Shown: positions 39,001 to 51,000 of the stretch, piece after piece | How the letters are laid out: each line of letters begins with the position of its first letter | Numbering within the stretch: position 1 is the stretch's first letter | Assembly (NCBI GenBank): GCA_039818205.1 | Contig: JBCBUK010000005.1 | Location: 232,065-296,064, forward strand | Reading direction: 5' to 3' | Source of the DNA: Verrucomicrobiota bacterium | GTDB taxonomy: Bacteria; Verrucomicrobiota; Verrucomicrobiia; Opitutales; Cerasicoccaceae | DNA: 64,000 nucleotides | Program-made: the position numbers

Positions 39001-42000
39001 GTAATACCGCTTAATCATGAAAATGCATATACTATCAAATGTATCTCGCCTATTGGCAATCGCTGCCTTGGGTTTTGCCTCCACAACGCTCCACGCAAAA
39101 GAACCCCTGAAAATCGCCTATAGCGATTGGCCAGGTTGGGTTGCCTGGGAAATTGGCATCAAGAAAGGCTGGTTCGAAGAAGCTGGCGTCGATGTCGACT
39201 TCCTTTGGTTTGACTACGTTGCATCGATGGATGCTTACGTGGCTGGCAAGGTCGACGCGGTATCAATGACCAATGGTGATGCGTTGGTCACTGGCGCCAC
39301 CGGGAAGCCATCGGTCGGCATTATTCTGAATGACTTCTCCAACGGCAATGACATGATTGTCGGCGGCCCGGGAGTTGATTCGATCAAGGACTTGAAGGGC
39401 AAGAAGGTCGGCGTTGAAGAAGGCTTTGTTTGCCACCTGCTTCTGCTCAAAGGGTTATCGGATAACGGTATGTCCGCTGACGATGTGACCATCGTCAACA
39501 CACCAACCAACGAAACGCCCCAGGTGCTTGCTTCGGGCGCTGTCGCAGCAATTGGCGCATGGCAGCCGAACTCAGGTGAAGCCTTGAAAGCGACGCCAGG
39601 CTCTTCACGCATTTATTCATCGGCTGATAGCCCAGGTATCATCTATGACTTCCTTTTCGTTTCTCCGGAGTCGTTGGAGACCCGTCGCGATGACTGGATG
39701 AAAGTGGTTGGCGTCTGGTATCGCATCGTCGACTACTTAAAGGACGAAGACAATATCGACGAAGCGCTCGAGATACTCTCATCACGCGTCAACTTGAAGC
39801 CTTCAGAGTATGAGCCGCTGTTTATTGGCACCCACATCCTCTCGCTCGATGAAGCGCTTGAGCGCTGGAAAAAAGGCGACGGCCTCGGCAGCGTCTACGG
39901 TTCTACTGACTTTGTTGATGACTTCAACGTGAAGTTTGAGGTCTATGAGGAGCCACTCAATACATCTAAGTATTTAGATCCGAGTCTGACAAAAGAATAT
40001 GCGAAGTCCGCGAAGTAGGGAATCGTGGTATCGTTAAAATAGGTAGCTTTGGCACCAAGCCGGATAAGGCTTGGTGCCAAGGCAAAACCACTGCTGCACT
40101 ACAACTACTATGTCCAAATTCGATCCATGGTTGGCGATACGCAAACCACTGTCGCCACAGCGACAAGCACTACTCACGGTCGTTTCATTCCTACTGCCGA
40201 TCTTTGTTTGGTGCATTGTCAGCTACATACCGTGGCTCTGGCATCCGGACATGGTTGTTACAGTCTCCGCCGATCGCCATGATGTCACCACCGTCTACTC
40301 GGTTGGCGATCGATTACCACGTCACAAAGAAAGCGAAGACGACTTTGCCTTTGTCGATTTCGTCGAAGATGTTCGCGAGCGTAACGAAGAAATTCAAGCT
40401 GCCCGCGATTCTGGAGAGCCGATGGAAAGCTCCCGTCGCGCGAACAAGAAAGTTCTGCGTCACCTGGCACCGGTTGGCATTGCCGAAGGCTGGCTAACAC
40501 GGGACCAGGCCACTGATGATACGGCAATCTACACGCTTTGGGGAGAGATTGCGCGGGGTGAAAAACAACCGTCCAAAGTCCAACTCTCCCAAGAGAATTT
40601 GGCAGTCGTCCGGGACAACTGGAGTAAGGTCGGAGCGATCAGCGAAACCTACGATTCGAAGAAAATCCCGACGGAAATTCTCCTCAATTTAATTCCACAA
40701 GGCAAACCATCCAATCCCGTATTTGTACCCGCACCGCACGAGGTTGTTCAAACGGGCATTTATGATTGGACGCACCAACGCGACCCAGACAAGCCGGCGA
40801 TGTTCGAGCGCTACGGTCACTCGTTGACCATTGTCTTTAGCGGCTTCCTGCTTTCCTGCTTATTTGGCGTCCCACTCGGGATCTTAAGCGGAACCTACGA
40901 CTTTTTTGCCAAAATTGTTGAGCCCTTTACTGATTTCTTCCGCTACATGCCTGCCCCGGCATTCAGCACAATATTGGTCGCCATTTTATCGGTGTATGAC
41001 GCGCCGAAAATCGGCCTGGTTTTTCTCGGCACTTACTTCCAAATGGTGTTGGTCATTTCCAACACGACGCGAACCTTAGACCGCTCGCTTCTCGAAGCTG
41101 CCCAAACCCTGGGCGCCAAGAGCAAAGACATGATGTTCCGAGTCATCATCCCAGGCATCATGCCAAAGCTCTACAATGACCTTCGCATTTTGCTCGGCTG
41201 GGCATGGACTTGGCTCGTGATCGCAGAACTGATCGGAACCAAGTCAGGCTTGACCGAGTTCATTGAGACGCAGGGCCGTTTTCGGAATTTCGACAGTGTC
41301 TACCCAACGATCATCATCATTGGCCTAACCGGCTACGTGACCGACCAAATTCTCGCCGCCCTGCGCCCGCTTTTCTTCCCGTGGGATCCGCAGCATTCTA
41401 GTCAGAAGCTCAATGTGATCATCCGCTTTTTCAAATGGCTCACGAACTCGGAGTGCTACGTAAAGTCCGAGCAAGACACCAAAACACTAACCTCCAACGA
41501 CCAATAGAAGGCTTCCCATGATTGATGAATTGCAATTACCGAGCTATCGGGAACAAAGCCCAGAAGTTGCCAGCCGTTTCAAGTCCATCTATGAGCGACC
41601 CGTTAAGCTGGAGGTCAAAGGGTTAGGCCGAACCTTCAACTCGAACAAGGGTACTGTTCGTGCGCTCCACGATATCAGCTTCAACGTTCACCGCCGCGAA
41701 TTCATCTCGGTCATTGGGCCATCTGGCTGCGGTAAGTCGACCTTGATCCGTATTTTGGCAGGCCTAGATTTCCCGACATCAGGCGAGGCACTGCTCGACG
41801 GTAAAACAATCTTTGGCCCTGGTCGTGACCGCGGAATGGTTTTTCAAGGGTATACGCTTTTTCCTTGGTTAACCGTCAAGAAGAACGTGATGTTCGGTCT
41901 CGAAGTGTCTGGCAGGACAGGATCATCTGTAGAAGCGGAAGCCCGCTCCTGGATTGAGATCGTCGGCTTGGCCGGGTTTGAAAATGCCTATCCAAGCCAA

Positions 42001-48000: not shown

Positions 48001-51000
48001 TTGGGTAACGATGAATCAGCGGCCGGCCTCGAAACAACACTGGAAGGCCCGACTCTACGGTTCAACGCCCCAACCACAATCGTGCTAACGGGCGCGGAGA
48101 GCGATGCGAAGCTTAATGGGCAAGCGCTGAGCTTCTGGGAGCCGATTGAAATCGCGTCCGACGATGTTCTGGAAATGGGACAGGTCACCGGTATCGGTAT
48201 GCGTACTTATTTGTGTATCGCTGGTGGGTTAAACGTCGCGGACTACCTGGGCAGCAAATCAACCTTTACGCTTGGGAAGTTTGGCGGGCACGGCGGCCGC
48301 CCACTCCAAACCGGTGACGTTCTCCACGTCAATCGCTCAAGCAATGCGATCGCGGCCAAAGCCTTACCCGCCGAGTATCGCCCCAAGATATCAAACCAGT
48401 GGACTATCAACGTACTCTATGGTCCACACGGGGCACCCGATTTCTTTACCGATGATGATATCGAGACGTTCTTCGCCACCGAGTGGGAGGTGCATTTTAA
48501 CTCGGCCCGGACTGGGGTTCGCCTGATCGGACCCAAGCCGCAATGGGCCCGTCCCGACGGCGGCGAGGCCGGACTTCATCCATCCAATATTCACGACAAT
48601 GCCTACGCGATCGGAGCAATCGATTTTACGGGAGACATGCCAGTCATTCTCGGCCCAGACGGGCCAAGTCTCGGTGGCTTTGTTTGCCCAGCGACTGTTG
48701 CCTTTGCCGACCTCTGGAAGATCGGACAGCTTCGGCCAGGTGATCGAATCCGATTCGAATGCATTGACCAAAGTAGCGCTGCGCTACTGGTAAAAAACCA
48801 AGAGAACCTCGTCAACGCGCTTCGCAACGAGGAAACTCCAGCAGTGCCGTGTATTACTCCAAAGGCAACGGATCTCATCCTCACAGAGACGGGCGACGGC
48901 AACGAGCGAATGGTCATTCGGCAATCCGGAGATGACAATGTATTGATCGAATTCGGACCTCCACTCCTGGACCTCCGACTGCGATTTATCGTCCACGTAT
49001 TCTATGAGCAGCTACTCAAGAATCGACTAGAAGGAGTCATCGACCTCACACCCGGAATTCGTTCTCTCCAAATTCATTTCGATCGGGCCGCGTTGGAACT
49101 GGATTGTGTTCTGGAGTGGCTGCTCGCCCATCACGCGGACCTCAAATCTCTAGAGGAACAGAAAGTATCCTCGCGCATCGTCCACTTACCGCTTTCGTGG
49201 GACGACCCTTCGACGCAGCTAGCTGTTTCTCGCTACATGCAAACGGTTCGTCCCGATGCGCCTTGGTGCCCGAATAACCTGGAGTTTATCCGCCGAATCA
49301 ATGGACTTGAATCGGTCGATCAGGTGCGGGAAATCGTCTTCAACGCCAGCTATGTTGTACTCGGCTTAGGGGACGTCTACCTTGGCGCTCCAGTCGCAAC
49401 TCCTTTGGACCCGCGTCATCGGTTGATCACGACAAAGTATAACCCAGCCCGAACCTGGACTCCGGAGAATGCCGTGGGAATTGGCGGAGCGTATATGTGT
49501 GTCTACGGTATGGAAGGCCCGGGCGGGTATCAGTTTGTCGGTCGCACCCTTCAAATGTGGAACCGCTATGGAAGCGTCGATGCATTTCATGACGACAAGC
49601 CCTGGTTACTTCGGTTTTTTGACCAGATTCGGTTTTTCCCAGTTTCGGCCGATGAACTCACGCAGATCCGAAAAGACTTTCCCCAGGGCAGGTATCCGAT
49701 AAAAATTGAGCAGAGCTCCTTTGACCTCCACGAATACGAGGCGATGCTCGCCAAGAACGATGCCGATATCCAGGCGTTCAGGAGTCAACAGCGTGAGGCA
49801 TTCGATGCGGAACGTGGGCGCTGGAGCGACACGGACCAGCGTTCGGACCTGGACGAGGTAGCCGTGGATTCGACAAGCGATATCGAGCTACCTGAAGGCT
49901 CTCAGGCTATTGAGAGCTCAGTATCGGGTACGGTATACAAAGTGCTAGTTAACGAGGGTGACCACGTTCAAAAGGGCCAAACGACCCTGGTGCTCGAGTC
50001 GATGAAAATGGAAATTTCGGTATGCAGCCCTTATGCGGGCGAAGTGATGCATGTCGCCGTTGCAAATGGTGGCTTCGTCAAACCTGGCGATCGGCTTTTG
50101 GCGGTTCGCTCAGACTAATCACTGCGCATAAGAAATTTGCATTGAGAAATATGTGATTCGTTTTTCAATTGAGAACAATGTCTTCGTCAAAATCGAATAC
50201 TAAGAAAAATCGAAGTGAAGATATCTTTAATATCCTGCAAAGTCGGATCCTCTCCTGGGAGTATCAACCTGGGCATCGATTGAAAGAGGATGAGCTTTGC
50301 CGAGAGTTCGATGTCAGCCGAATTCCCATCCGGGAAGCTCTTAGCCGCCTCAGTCAAATCCATTTGGTGGAGCGCAAGGCCCACGTCGGCTGTTCGGTAA
50401 AGCGTTGGACACTGGAGGAAATTAATGAACTCTATGAGTTTCGTGTCGCATTGGAGACCTATGTTGTTGAGGCGCTTGCCCAGAAAGAGGATCCCATTGC
50501 CGAACTAAAAGAACTCAAAAAGGAATGGCAGGGCTACCTAACCGAAACGGATGACACCAGTTTTGCCCAAAAGAATTGGTCTACCCGGGACGAACACTTT
50601 CATGAGACGCTGGCCGCTGCACTTGGAAACCAACAGATTCTAAATTCGCTGCAAGACGTGAACTCTCGGCTTCGGTTTTTGCGCGTCCAGGACATCACGA
50701 CGCAAGAGGTTTTAACGAAAAGCAGTAAGCAGCATATCTCCATTATCAACGCGATTCGACGCAGCGACGACGAGTCCGCGAAAAAGTTGATGCGAACCAA
50801 TATTCAGATGGGTAAGGGCAACGTAAAGAGCGCTCTACAGCAAGTTCTCATGCGCTCCTATGAAGATTAGAATGACCGCGCTAGCTGCCTGCTAGGCTGG
50901 ACATATACCGCCGCCACGACTGTAGATGGGTAATCTCAGTGGAACCTTCCACAGCGCAAGCCTCGGCGATAAAGCCCATGCACTCGACATCGCCCTTAAG

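What a model noticed while it worked through the whole genome (the two positions that open the first line are those of the whole stretch)
39017..50118. Nickel-blind NikR paralogs sit in guanidine/urea carboxylase and urea-uptake loci
g01843 is a full-length NikR-fold protein (RHH + NikR_C) inside an operon of an NMT1-type ABC importer, carboxyguanidine deiminase CgdAB (DUF1989) and a urea/guanidine carboxylase, but 3 of its 4 high-affinity nickel ligands are replaced (H-H-H-C to Y-H-L-T); a second such paralog (g03411, C15:102244-102696) sits beside a urt urea importer. I read this as a NikR subfamily that has lost nickel sensing and become the ligand-responsive (guanidine, urea or a derivative) repressor of ATP-dependent guanidine/urea assimilation, doing the job that guanidine-I riboswitches do elsewhere. 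New would be a protein sensor for this pathway and a non-metal effector for the NikR fold.
Evidence so far: Alignment to P. horikoshii NikR 2bj1 (E 2e-28, call 84): His78 to Tyr, His89 kept, His91 to Leu, Cys97 to Thr. Of the 30 best homologues in 301 Verrucomicrobiota genomes, 8 keep H-H-H-C and 0 of 8 have CgdAB within 1.5 kb; 22 lack the Cys (YHLT, RHLT, RHLI, HHHY ...) and 14 of 22 have cgdA+cgdB directly adjacent; 5 of the other 8 were scanned and all 5 lie next to an NMT1-type binding protein or the carboxylase CT/biotinyl end. neighbours.tsv: NikR_C next to DUF1989 in at least 1206 of 3833 genomes with both. rna.tsv has no guanidine riboswitch here. g03411 also lacks the ligands. No urease, NiFe hydrogenase or nickel-transporter Pfam rows; only Ni-SOD and a CobW protein. 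Full-text searches [...]
(Added by a program. Inside this text positions count along the whole contig: contig position 232,065 is position 1 of the stretch shown here. "Call 12" and the like, gene names such as g00115 and contig names such as C1 are that model's own, and its searches are not shown. The text may have been shortened before it was handed on; [...] marks where a part breaks off. The agent that wrote the report below was given it as the finding of a first reader that could run no searches.)

Follow-up and report, generated by a model that had tools for sequence, protein, structure and literature searches.

The report
Nickel-blind NikR repressor of guanidine operon
A protein built like the bacterial nickel sensor NikR, but without its nickel site, sits inside a guanidine-uptake and breakdown operon and has its own conserved DNA landing site over that operon's promoter, which makes it a strong candidate for a protein, rather than RNA, switch for guanidine use.

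Summary
Window 44689-45138 encodes a full-length NikR-fold protein (RHH + NikR_C) with Y-H-L-T where nickel NikRs have H-H-H-C. It is the sixth gene of a nine-gene operon: NMT1-type ABC importer, creatininase-like and GS-like enzymes, CgdA/CgdB and an Asp-type (guanidine-type) carboxylase.

New here:
- A 28-bp operator, GTATTAC-N14-GTAATAC, starts 5 nt after a sigma-54-type promoter in front of the operon. It is the single best match in the 4.85-Mb genome.
- The operator recurs upstream of the importer gene in 46 of 53 related loci from Verrucomicrobiota and Alpha-, Beta- and Gammaproteobacteria.
- On a tree, Cys-less proteins separate almost cleanly from H-H-H-C NikRs. All 85 rows with guanidine-gene context lack the Cys.
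- A member with 0 of 4 nickel ligands keeps the same operon position and operator.
- The genome has no urease, guanidinase, NiFe hydrogenase, NiCoT or CbiM.

So it is a local repressor that no longer senses nickel at the canonical site. The effector (guanidine is my best guess) is untested.

"Replaces the riboswitch" is only partly right: 11 of 80 genomes carry both, and the two split the pathway. The second paralog is an orphan.

The scan reached the same reading earlier on other genomes. No paper found describes it.

The parts
38960..38975 (+). Sigma-54-type promoter element TGGCATggcatGTGCT, with GG at 38961-38962 and GC at 38973-38974.
   Evidence: 2 mismatches to TGGCAC-N5-TTGCW. The same element lies within 60 nt upstream of the importer-side operator in 40 of 47 regions, against 0.3% of random 65-nt windows. 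rpoN is present in the genome.
38980..39007 (.). Operator O1, GTATTATGATTTTCCAAAAACGTAATAC. It has 1 mismatch to GTATTAC-N14-GTAATAC, starts 5 nt after the -12 GC and ends 10 nt before the first start codon.
   Evidence: It is the only 1-mismatch site in the whole 4.85-Mb genome. A site with up to 3 mismatches lies upstream of the importer gene in 46 of 53 related loci.
39017..40018 (+). NMT1/TauA-type periplasmic binding protein of the ABC importer.
   Evidence: NMT1 E 9.5e-15; TIGR03427 at 153 bits, below its cut-off of 334.
40071..41507 (+). ABC importer permease.
41518..42414 (+). ABC importer ATPase.
42411..43181 (+). Creatininase-family amidohydrolase of unknown reaction. Its start overlaps the ATPase stop by 4 nt.
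   Evidence: PF02633, E 5.8e-69. Present together with the GS-like gene in 35 of 80 related loci.
43199..44617 (+). Type-III glutamine-synthetase-like ligase of unknown substrate.
   Evidence: TIGR03105, 621 bits, cut-off 470.
44625..44652 (.). Possible weak second operator, GTATTAACAATTTGCCAAAAATTAATAT (3 mismatches), in the 71-nt gap before the regulator gene.
   Evidence: On its own it is not significant: it is one of 49 three-mismatch sites in the genome. Its position matches the operators found upstream of the regulator gene in other loci.
44689..45138 (+). NikR-like regulator of 149 aa. It has an RHH domain, a NikR_C domain and a clade-specific C-terminal tail IPPLH, and reads Y80-H91-L93-T99 at the nickel-ligand positions.
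45138..45866 (+). CgdA (UAAP1, DUF1989). Its ATG overlaps the regulator's TAA by 1 nt.
   Evidence: TIGR03425, 319 bits, cut-off 206.
45870..46514 (+). CgdB (UAAP2, DUF1989).
   Evidence: TIGR03424, 324 bits, cut-off 285.
46528..50118 (+). Biotin carboxylase of the guanidine type, with Asp699 in GAIDFTGD.
50881..52728 (-). Allophanate hydrolase, last gene of the convergent urea operon. It is the only one in the genome above the family cut-off, so the guanidine operon must share it.

Best explanation
The 149-aa protein is a NikR-derived tetrameric ribbon-helix-helix repressor that has given up nickel sensing and become the local regulator of guanidine import and breakdown.

Shown by sequence analysis:
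- It keeps the NikR fold and the DNA-reading strand.
- A NikR-style 28-bp palindrome (GTATTAC-N14-GTAATAC) is conserved in front of the operons that carry it.
- In this window that palindrome starts 5 nt after the -12 element of a sigma-54-type promoter, so it covers the expected transcription start.
- The operon encodes an ABC importer, two accessory enzymes, the regulator itself, CgdAB and an Asp-type (guanidine-type) carboxylase.

Inferred:
- Nitrogen limitation turns on the sigma-54 promoter through an unidentified activator.
- The regulator sits on the start site and blocks it.
- Guanidine, or a closely related guanidino compound brought in by the importer, releases it.
- Because the regulator is encoded inside the operon, it also feeds back on itself.

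My odds for the parts: local DNA-binding regulator of this operon, about 0.9. No nickel sensing at the canonical site, about 0.85. Guanidine-type inducer, about 0.45.
For: Fold.
- 2bj1 E 2.2e-28 over 127 residues.
- AF2 model pLDDT 82 with RHH plus a beta-alpha-beta-beta-alpha-beta domain.
- All the listed top PDB fold matches are NikR.
- A four-copy model scored 0.88 against 0.00 for the best of 3 controls. That mark was reached by 20 of 30 proteins solved as pairs of one chain and by 1 of 23 solved as single chains. The runs agree in at least 94% of contacts and the partner's pLDDT is at least 81. NikR tetramers are solved, so this pass may come from memory.

Operator.
- A dyad search blind to any NikR motif gave GTATTAC-N14-GTAATAC.
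- Sites with up to 3 mismatches lie upstream of the importer gene in 46 of 53 loci. Sites with up to 2 mismatches lie upstream of the regulator gene in 20 of 30 loci where it heads its own unit, and in 11 of 49 where it is internal.
- 67 of 80 loci have at least one site with up to 2 mismatches. The figure is 0 of 4 for cgdAB loci without the regulator and 0 of 11 for the stretches fetched at the riboswitches that lie outside the regulator loci.
- The own genome has a single 1-mismatch site, the one in front of this operon.

Promoter. A sigma-54-type element lies upstream of 40 of 47 importer-side operators, and the -12 GC sits 5-20 nt before the operator. rpoN is present.

Loss of the nickel site.
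- 0 of 120 best homologues keep the Cys.
- On a 253-row tree the Cys/no-Cys label needs 2 changes, against a shuffled mean of 74. Of the rows with known context, 85 of 85 with guanidine context lack Cys and 22 of 22 with other context have it.
- His66, His67, His80, His93, Asp95 and Cys99 are 82-100% conserved in the Cys clade and relaxed in this clade.
- A member reading R-R-L-I, with 0 of 4 ligands, sits in the same operon with a 1-mismatch operator.

Guanidine.
- Asp at the position that a published rule uses to tell guanidine from urea carboxylases (PMC11410670, passages read). Here it is D699, against N702 in the second carboxylase.
- 62 of 62 carboxylases in related loci have Asp.
- The urea module of the window (urtABCDE, Asn-type carboxylase, allophanate hydrolase) has no operator.

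No nickel-dependent alternative in the genome.
Against: - No ligand has been tested, and nothing here measures binding or expression.
- The regulator and a guanidine-I riboswitch coexist in 11 of 80 genomes and lie side by side in 3 loci. If both sensed guanidine, one would seem redundant, so the protein may sense something else.
- In several of those genomes the riboswitch leads its own, distantly related ABC importer (25-47% identity to the window's components). The regulator's importer may therefore carry a different substrate.
- Half of the 120 closest homologues keep three His (HHHT), so some residual metal binding cannot be excluded.
- His91 is kept in 76% of the clade.
- The internal site at 44625-44652 is weak.
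- The sigma-54 element and the start site are predicted, not mapped.
- Related boxes occur near canonical NikR genes (L087, L089, L146). The operator type is therefore inherited and does not by itself mark a new function.
Confidence: 0.5

Rival explanations
1. Same repressor, different small-molecule effector. Candidates are the unknown substrate or product of the creatininase-like/GS-like pair (a substituted guanidine, for instance), a pathway intermediate such as carboxyguanidine or allophanate, urea, or a nitrogen-status metabolite acting as co-repressor.
For: - The regulator coexists with guanidine-I riboswitches. In those genomes it governs only the importer, creatininase-like and GS-like module, while the riboswitch governs cgdAB-carboxylase.
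- The creatininase-like/GS-like pair travels with the regulator in 35 of 80 loci.
- The NikR_C domain has an ACT-like fold. That such folds often bind amino acids is recalled, not tested here.
Against: - Many loci have importer-regulator-cgdAB-carboxylase-allophanate hydrolase without the two extra enzymes. There the only evident substrate is guanidine.
- Urea has its own importer and Asn-type carboxylase in this window, with no operator.
- The sigma-54 promoter already provides a route for nitrogen-status control.
Confidence: 0.2
2. There is no effector. The protein is a constitutive auto-repressor that damps a strong sigma-54 promoter. Side chains and the new C-terminal tail replace nickel in holding the DNA-binding form.
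For: - The gene lies inside the operon it would repress.
- Positions 80 and 93 co-vary: R with Q or L in 65 rows, H with H in 30, and R with H in only 5. They touch across subunits in the tetramer model, as if filling the old metal site.
- The clade-specific residues E85 and Q106 and the PP tail lie in a predicted subunit interface.
Against: - A catabolic operon with an importer normally needs a substrate signal.
- Where the regulator heads cgdAB-carboxylase from a promoter without a sigma-54 element (0 of 38), it is the only regulatory element I found.
- Conservation across four bacterial classes at a fixed operon position suggests more than damping.
Confidence: 0.15
3. It still senses a metal (nickel or another) through non-canonical ligands, for example as a nickel-sparing switch that shuts the ATP-costly carboxylase route when nickel enzymes can work.
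For: - HHHT variants keep three His (60 of 120) and HHHY variants exist.
- His91 is kept in 76% of the clade.
- NCBIfam still scores the protein above the NikR equivalog cut-off (118 against 105 bits).
- The alternative guanidine and urea enzymes, guanidinase and urease, need nickel (PMC12186494, passages read).
Against: - This genome has no urease, arginase-family guanidinase, NiFe hydrogenase, NiCoT or CbiM, so there is nothing to spare.
- The window protein keeps 1 of 4 ligands, and a member with 0 of 4 keeps the operon and operator.
- The second-shell His66, His67 and Asp95 are also lost.
- The Cys is a ligand of the square-planar site (PMC7055735, passages read).
Confidence: 0.1
4. It is not a regulator but an accessory subunit or chaperone of CgdAB or the carboxylase, as its translational coupling to cgdA might suggest.
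For: - The stop codon overlaps the cgdA start by 1 nt.
- cgdA lies directly downstream in 65 of 80 loci.
Against: - The RHH DNA-reading residues are conserved: R7 in 99% and S9 in 94% of the clade.
- A conserved operator travels with the gene and is missing where the gene is missing.
- In loci such as L057, L067, L073 and L076 the regulator is present and cgdAB is not in the locus.
Confidence: 0.03

Closest known systems
Canonical NikR (E. coli 1q5v/2hzv, P. horikoshii 2bj1, H. pylori 2ca9/6mrj)
   Same: - RHH plus NikR_C architecture and a predicted tetramer.
- A palindromic operator with the same geometry. E. coli has GTATGA-N16-TCATAC (PMC7055735). The delta-proteobacterial NikR box GTGTTAC-N13/14-GTAACAC differs by one base per half-site (PMC545781).
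- It represses an importer operon and is encoded next to its target.
   Different: - Only 1 of the 4 high-affinity nickel ligands is kept, and the Cys is absent from the whole clade.
- The second-shell His66, His67 and Asp95 are lost.
- In the RSEAIRD motif aligned with P. horikoshii NikR, the Glu and Asp read Gln34 and Ser38. That these are the potassium-site residues (E. coli Glu30/Asp34, PMC7055735) is recalled, not aligned here.
- A conserved C-terminal tail (hydrophobic-hydrophobic-P-P-hydrophobic-H) is added.
- The targets are guanidine genes, not nickel genes.
Guanidine-I (ykkC) riboswitch in front of guanidine carboxylase-pathway operons
   Same: It controls the same set of genes (ABC importer, cgdAB, carboxylase, allophanate hydrolase). 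In most genomes with this regulator no such riboswitch was found: 69 of 80, and 0 of 17 CgdA-bearing Verrucomicrobiota.
   Different: - It is RNA acting in cis on a transcript, whereas this is a protein acting on a promoter.
- Its ligand is proven; here the ligand is only inferred.
- The two are not strictly exclusive. They coexist in 11 of 80 genomes and split the pathway between them.
Small-molecule-responsive RHH repressors such as MetJ (recalled, not tested here)
   Same: An RHH protein whose DNA binding is set by a metabolite rather than by a metal.
   Different: MetJ has no NikR_C domain, forms a dimer of RHH units and uses SAM as co-repressor. No sequence relation beyond the RHH motif was examined here.

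Membership tests
NikR (nickel-responsive RHH regulator) | N-terminal ribbon-helix-helix DNA-binding domain | tested here: met
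   RHH_1 E 2.7e-5. Aligned from residue 7 to 2bj1. R7 and S9 are 99% and 94% conserved in the clade.
NikR (nickel-responsive RHH regulator) | C-terminal NikR_C (ACT-like) domain | tested here: met
   PF08753 E 1.4e-23. The model shows a beta-alpha-beta-beta-alpha-beta domain. Superposition on nickel-binding domains gives rmsd 1.0-1.5 A.
NikR (nickel-responsive RHH regulator) | Homotetramer through the C-terminal domains | tested here: met
   This is a model only. Score 0.88 against 0.00 for the best of 3 controls. The mark was reached by 20 of 30 proteins solved as pairs of one chain and 1 of 23 solved as single chains. Runs agree in at least 94% of contacts, and pLDDT is at least 81. The pass may come from memory of solved NikR tetramers.
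NikR (nickel-responsive RHH regulator) | High-affinity square-planar nickel site His-His-His-Cys | tested here: not met
   Y80-H91-L93-T99. 0 of 120 close homologues have the Cys. The ligand identities come from PMC7055735.
NikR (nickel-responsive RHH regulator) | 27-28-bp inverted-repeat operator | tested here: met
   GTATTAC-N14-GTAATAC. The comparison boxes come from PMC545781 and PMC7055735.
NikR (nickel-responsive RHH regulator) | Regulon of nickel uptake or nickel enzymes | tested here: not met
   All 80 loci hold guanidine-pathway genes. The genome lacks NiCoT, CbiM, urease and NiFe hydrogenase. Among canonical NikR loci of the phylum, 0 of 21 hold guanidine genes and 2 of 21 hold CbiM/PDGLE.
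NikR (nickel-responsive RHH regulator) | Nickel-dependent DNA binding | not testable with these tools
   Needs the purified protein.
Guanidine carboxylase-pathway operon | Carboxylase with Asp at K. lactis position 1330 (TIGR02712 HMM position 701) | tested here: met
   D699 in GAIDFTGD, against N702 in the second carboxylase. 62 of 62 carboxylases in related loci have Asp. The rule is from PMC11410670. I mapped the column by position in the family match, not with the HMM itself.
Guanidine carboxylase-pathway operon | CgdA and CgdB pair | tested here: met
   TIGR03425 at 319 bits and TIGR03424 at 324 bits, both above their cut-offs.
Guanidine carboxylase-pathway operon | Allophanate hydrolase | tested here: met
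   At 50881-52728 on the opposite strand, at the end of the urea operon. It is the only one in the genome above the cut-off.
Guanidine carboxylase-pathway operon | Guanidine riboswitch leader | tested here: not met
   No Rfam match in the window. RF00442 and RF01068 were not found in the genome.

The most novel reading that the evidence does not exclude
This clade is the first protein receptor for guanidine and the first NikR-fold regulator with a non-metal effector.

In this reading the old nickel pocket at the subunit interface has been rebuilt into a site for the guanidinium cation. The pieces would be:
- Glu101, kept from NikR, and Glu85, newly fixed in the clade.
- The coupled pair at positions 80 and 93.
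- The new C-terminal PP tail acting as a lid.

Half of the clade carries Arg at position 80, which puts a protein guanidinium group where nickel used to sit. Free guanidine could compete with that contact and loosen the DNA-binding form.
Probability: 0.35. Interest if true: 0.85.

Novelty: new variant of a known kind. Interest (0 to 1): 0.72.

Why it matters
A 2025 review states that riboswitches are the only known guanidine receptors apart from transporters and enzymes, and that guanidine-binding transcription factors remain to be found (PMC12186494). A 2026 preprint treats the NikR family as functionally complete and nickel-only (10.64898/2026.05.01.721428).

This clade challenges both views:
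- It is widespread. In a row-capped scan of one genome per species, 585 of the 599 stretches returned encode a relative.
- Databases annotate it as nickel-responsive NikR.
- It appears to control guanidine nitrogen scavenging in marine and soil Verrucomicrobiota and Proteobacteria.

If the effector is confirmed, it would give a protein-based guanidine sensor for reporters and biosensors. It would also be a clean example of a metal sensor re-used for a metabolite, and it would correct many genome annotations. The operator and promoter defined here make the question directly testable.

Tried and rejected
- RNA evidence: no RNA holder was listed for window 38700-46600. The only holder is a DNA run that may be the source of this DNA. 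No reads were laid.
- My first composite of the dyad used a wrong spacer (N12) and found nothing. The corrected N14 form worked.
- Canonical NikR controls: 30 loci were fetched. Six gave no tblastn hit with the window protein and one gave no ORF, so they were left out. L103 and L112 are guanidine-linked. That leaves 21 loci and 61 ORFs for the Pfam control.
- Twelve further NikR_C hits of the phylum with weak or middling scores showed no urt, formamidase or guanidine genes. They are not relatives of the second paralog.
- Reaching divergent clade members with alignments A2 and A3 was not possible. A single divergent protein was used instead.
- The guanidine-III search of the genome is uninformative because its controls did not ring.
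- The riboswitch search over 50 genomes ran with stricter filters and scored only 61 candidates per genome. Its 1 of 50 may be an undercount.
- Literature: searches for NikR with guanidine, NikR with urea carboxylase, carboxyguanidine deiminase, guanidine with transcription factor, NikR-like/homolog/paralog/family, and RHH/CopG/nickel-responsive terms crossed with pathway terms found no paper describing this regulator. Subscription-only papers and supplements were not seen.
- I could not measure distances in the models because no coordinates are returned. Pocket statements rest on the contact lists.

Full report
WHAT IS THERE

Window 39017-50118 holds nine co-directional, tightly packed genes:
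- an NMT1/TauA-type binding protein, a permease and an ATPase of an ABC importer;
- a creatininase-family hydrolase;
- a type-III glutamine-synthetase-like ligase;
- a 149-aa NikR-like protein (44689-45138);
- CgdA and CgdB, both above their NCBIfam cut-offs;
- a 1196-aa biotin carboxylase.

The regulator's TAA overlaps the cgdA ATG by one base. A GntR/FCD gene follows at 50169-50870.

On the opposite strand lies a complete urea module. It starts with a sigma-54-type element at 63036-63051 and an unknown 283-aa protein. UrtABCDE, a second carboxylase and an allophanate hydrolase follow. That hydrolase is the only one in the genome above the family cut-off, so the guanidine operon must share it.

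THE NICKEL SITE

The protein aligns with P. horikoshii NikR over 127 residues (E 2.2e-28). His78, His89, His91 and Cys97 correspond to Tyr80, His91, Leu93 and Thr99. These four are the square-planar ligands (E. coli His76', His87, His89, Cys95; PMC7055735, passages read).

An AlphaFold2 model (pLDDT 82) has the RHH helices and a beta-alpha-beta-beta-alpha-beta domain. Its last 13 residues are of low confidence. The listed top PDB matches are all NikR.

A four-copy model scored 0.88 against 0.00 for the best of three controls. That mark was reached by 20 of 30 proteins solved as pairs of one chain and by 1 of 23 solved as single chains. The runs agree in at least 94% of contacts, and the partner's pLDDT is at least 81. 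NikR tetramers are solved, so this shows likeness rather than proof.

A CLADE, NOT A ONE-OFF

Of the 120 best homologues, none has Cys at the fourth position: HHHT 60, YHLT 24, and many other combinations.

I built a FastTree of 253 NikR-family rows. It held 106 sequences cut from fetched loci, the two window-genome proteins and 145 cluster representatives of 110-260 aa. On it the Cys/no-Cys label needs only 2 changes, against a shuffled mean of 74. All 85 rows with guanidine-gene context lack the Cys, and all 22 rows with other context have H-H-H-C.

Comparing the two groups:
- The Cys clade conserves His66, His67, His80, His93, Asp95 and Cys99 at 82-100%. All of these are relaxed in the Cys-less clade, where only His91 stays common (76%).
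- The Cys-less clade has fixed Pro13, Leu20, Arg27, Met56, Glu85, Val86, Ser89, Gln106 and Leu112. It has also added a C-terminal tail with two prolines (95-96%) that canonical proteins lack.
- Positions 80 and 93 are coupled: R with Q or L in 65 rows, H with H in 30, R with H in 5.

In the tetramer model, residues 79, 80 and 83 of one copy touch residue 93 of another. The tail (136-144) lies in the interface with residues 83-85, 87-88 and 104-108 of another copy. The old metal site therefore looks rebuilt, not merely decayed. This last step is inference.

GENOMIC CONTEXT ELSEWHERE

Of these, 585 encode relatives, and the best 80 loci were kept. They come from Verrucomicrobiota and from Gamma-, Beta- and Alphaproteobacteria.

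By tblastn with the window's proteins:
- 80 of 80 loci hold at least one pathway gene;
- cgdA lies directly downstream of the regulator in 65;
- cgdA or cgdB lies somewhere in the locus in 71;
- importer genes occur in 60;
- the creatininase-like and GS-like pair occurs in 35.

In my own sample of 151 Verrucomicrobiota genomes, 17 have CgdA and 52 have a NikR_C gene. In 13 of the 17 the two lie within 7 kb of each other. The four exceptions are one genus with three DUF1989 genes, no regulator and no operator.

Canonical NikR loci of the same phylum served as a control: 21 loci and 61 flanking ORFs, after dropping 7 of the 30 loci for lack of a hit or an ORF and 2 that were guanidine-linked. 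None of the 61 ORFs is a guanidine gene, and two of the loci have CbiM/PDGLE.

THE OPERATOR

A dyad count on upstream regions, blind to any NikR motif, gave one dominant signal: GTATTAC-N14-GTAATAC.

In the related loci:
- With up to 3 mismatches it lies upstream of the importer gene in 46 of 53 loci, and with up to 2 mismatches in 43 of 53.
- With up to 2 mismatches it lies upstream of the regulator gene in 20 of 30 loci where that gene heads its own unit, and in 11 of 49 where it is internal.
- Over whole loci, 67 of 80 have at least one site with up to 2 mismatches.
- None occurs in the 4 cgdAB loci without the regulator, or in the 11 stretches fetched at the riboswitches that lie outside the regulator loci.

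In the window:
- The site at 38980-39007 has one mismatch. It is the only such site in the 4.85-Mb genome; five sites have 2 mismatches and 49 have 3.
- A 3-mismatch site at 44625-44652 lies just before the regulator gene. It is suggestive only.

The geometry equals that of the E. coli NikR box (GTATGA-N16-TCATAC; PMC7055735). The sequence is one base per half-site away from the delta-proteobacterial NikR box GTGTTAC-N13/14-GTAACAC (PMC545781). Similar boxes lie next to canonical NikR genes of this phylum (L087, L089, L146). DNA recognition was therefore inherited.

THE PROMOTER

A sigma-54-type element (TGGC[AG][CT]-N5-NTGC[ATC]) lies within 60 nt upstream of 40 of 47 importer-side operators, against 0.3% of random windows. 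Its -12 GC sits 5-20 nt before the operator. None precedes the 38 regulator-side operators.

In the window the element is at 38960-38975, and the operator starts 5 nt later. rpoN is present in the genome. A protein bound there would cover the expected start site, which is why I read it as a repressor. The start site itself is not mapped.

GUANIDINE OR UREA?

A published rule separates guanidine from urea carboxylases by Asp or Asn at K. lactis position 1330 (PMC11410670 methods, passages read; also PMC12186494).
- The operon's carboxylase has Asp699.
- The convergent one, which follows urtABCDE, has Asn702 in the same motif.
- All 62 carboxylases in the related loci have Asp.
- I mapped the column by position in the family match, not with the HMM itself.

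The regulator's module is thus the guanidine one, and the urea module carries no operator.

NICKEL

The genome (99.97% complete) shows no urease alpha, NiFe hydrogenase, NiCoT, CbiM or arginase-family (guanidinase) gene, and has one Ni-SOD.

A divergent clade member reading R-R-L-I at the four ligand positions, about 35% identical to the window protein, sits in importer-regulator-cgdAB-carboxylase-hydrolase with a 1-mismatch operator. The canonical site is therefore dispensable for whatever the clade does.

RELATION TO RIBOSWITCHES

No guanidine-I riboswitch was found in any of the 17 CgdA-bearing Verrucomicrobiota genomes.

Among the genomes of the 80 loci, it was found in 3 of 5, 1 of 50 and 7 of 25, which is 11 of 80. 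The 50-genome run used stricter filters.
- In L063, L075 and L080 the riboswitch lies directly upstream of cgdA. The regulator closes the neighbouring importer operon, which has the operator and the sigma-54 element.
- Elsewhere the riboswitch mostly leads cgdAB, with or without the carboxylase and a second, distantly related ABC importer.
- In the genome of L005 the carboxylase and allophanate hydrolase sit in the regulator's own locus, and the riboswitch there leads only cgdAB.

The two sensors can therefore coexist and divide the pathway. This weakens the simple 'replacement' reading and leaves room for a different effector.

THE SECOND PARALOG

The second paralog (C15:102244-102696) is real and lacks the ligands (R-T-H-V). 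It faces a urt-like importer and a formamidase-like gene.

It has no relative above 38% identity in 401 genomes of the phylum. Its upstream region has its own sigma-54-like element and a different dyad, CAGATGG-N15-CCATCTG.

KNOWN OR NEW?

Eight full-text searches found no paper on this regulator. I read only matching passages of the papers cited.
- A 2026 preprint regards the NikR family as nickel-only.

This scan reached the same reading earlier on other genomes. I derived the operator and the promoter before looking those notes up.

VERDICT

The protein is a real, widespread, mis-annotated NikR-derived local repressor of guanidine operons. Loss of canonical nickel sensing is well supported. 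The effector remains open.

Noticed in passing
window 42411-44617; 35 of 80 related loci: A creatininase-family hydrolase and a type-III GS-like ligase travel together inside the importer/regulator operon across phyla. Their reaction is unknown. In genomes that also carry a riboswitch-led cgdAB operon they stay with the regulator's module. The scan noted this pair before (e1-4218579).
   Followed up: partly
window 50881-63051, - strand: A complete urea module lies here: a sigma-54-type element TGGCATgtggaTTGCT (63036-63051), an unknown 283-aa ORF (62123-62974), urtABCDE (56317-62089), an Asn-type urea carboxylase (52709-56311) and the genome's only allophanate hydrolase. It converges on the guanidine operon, so the two pathways share one hydrolase.
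   Followed up: partly
window 50169-50870: A GntR/FCD regulator gene lies 50 nt after the guanidine carboxylase on the same strand. No homologue of it appeared in the 80 related loci. Its target is unknown and could be the urea module.
   Followed up: no
own genome C15:95442-102979 (outside the window): The second NikR-like paralog (C15:102244-102696, R-T-H-V) faces a urtABCDE-like importer and a formamidase/acetamidase-like gene. Upstream of it are a sigma-54-like element near 102128 and the dyad CAGATGG-N15-CCATCTG at 102180-102208. No close relative was found in 401 genomes of the phylum. The contig ends 283 nt after the gene.
   Followed up: partly
L113-L116 (four Verrucomicrobiota genomes of one genus): These guanidine operons have three DUF1989 genes in a row (CgdA, CgdB, CgdB-like). 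They have no NikR-like gene, no operator and no guanidine-I riboswitch, so their regulation is unknown.
   Followed up: partly
L080:16022-16068 and 17675-17780: An Aquabacterium locus carries a guanidine-I riboswitch before cgdA, a guanidine-II match between cgdB and the carboxylase (33.2 bits, gathering score 32), and the NikR-like regulator's operon next door. That is three sensors in one locus.
   Followed up: no
L087:1301, L089:1904, L146:7824: Canonical Cys-bearing NikR genes of Verrucomicrobiota have boxes of the same type next to them, for example GTGTTAC-N14-GTAACAC. The half-site of the guanidine clade is therefore a small drift from the nickel NikR box.
   Followed up: no
L117:10672: A more distant guanidine-linked regulator (36% identity) has the operator variant GTGTTAC-N14-GTAACAC upstream of its importer gene.
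   Followed up: no
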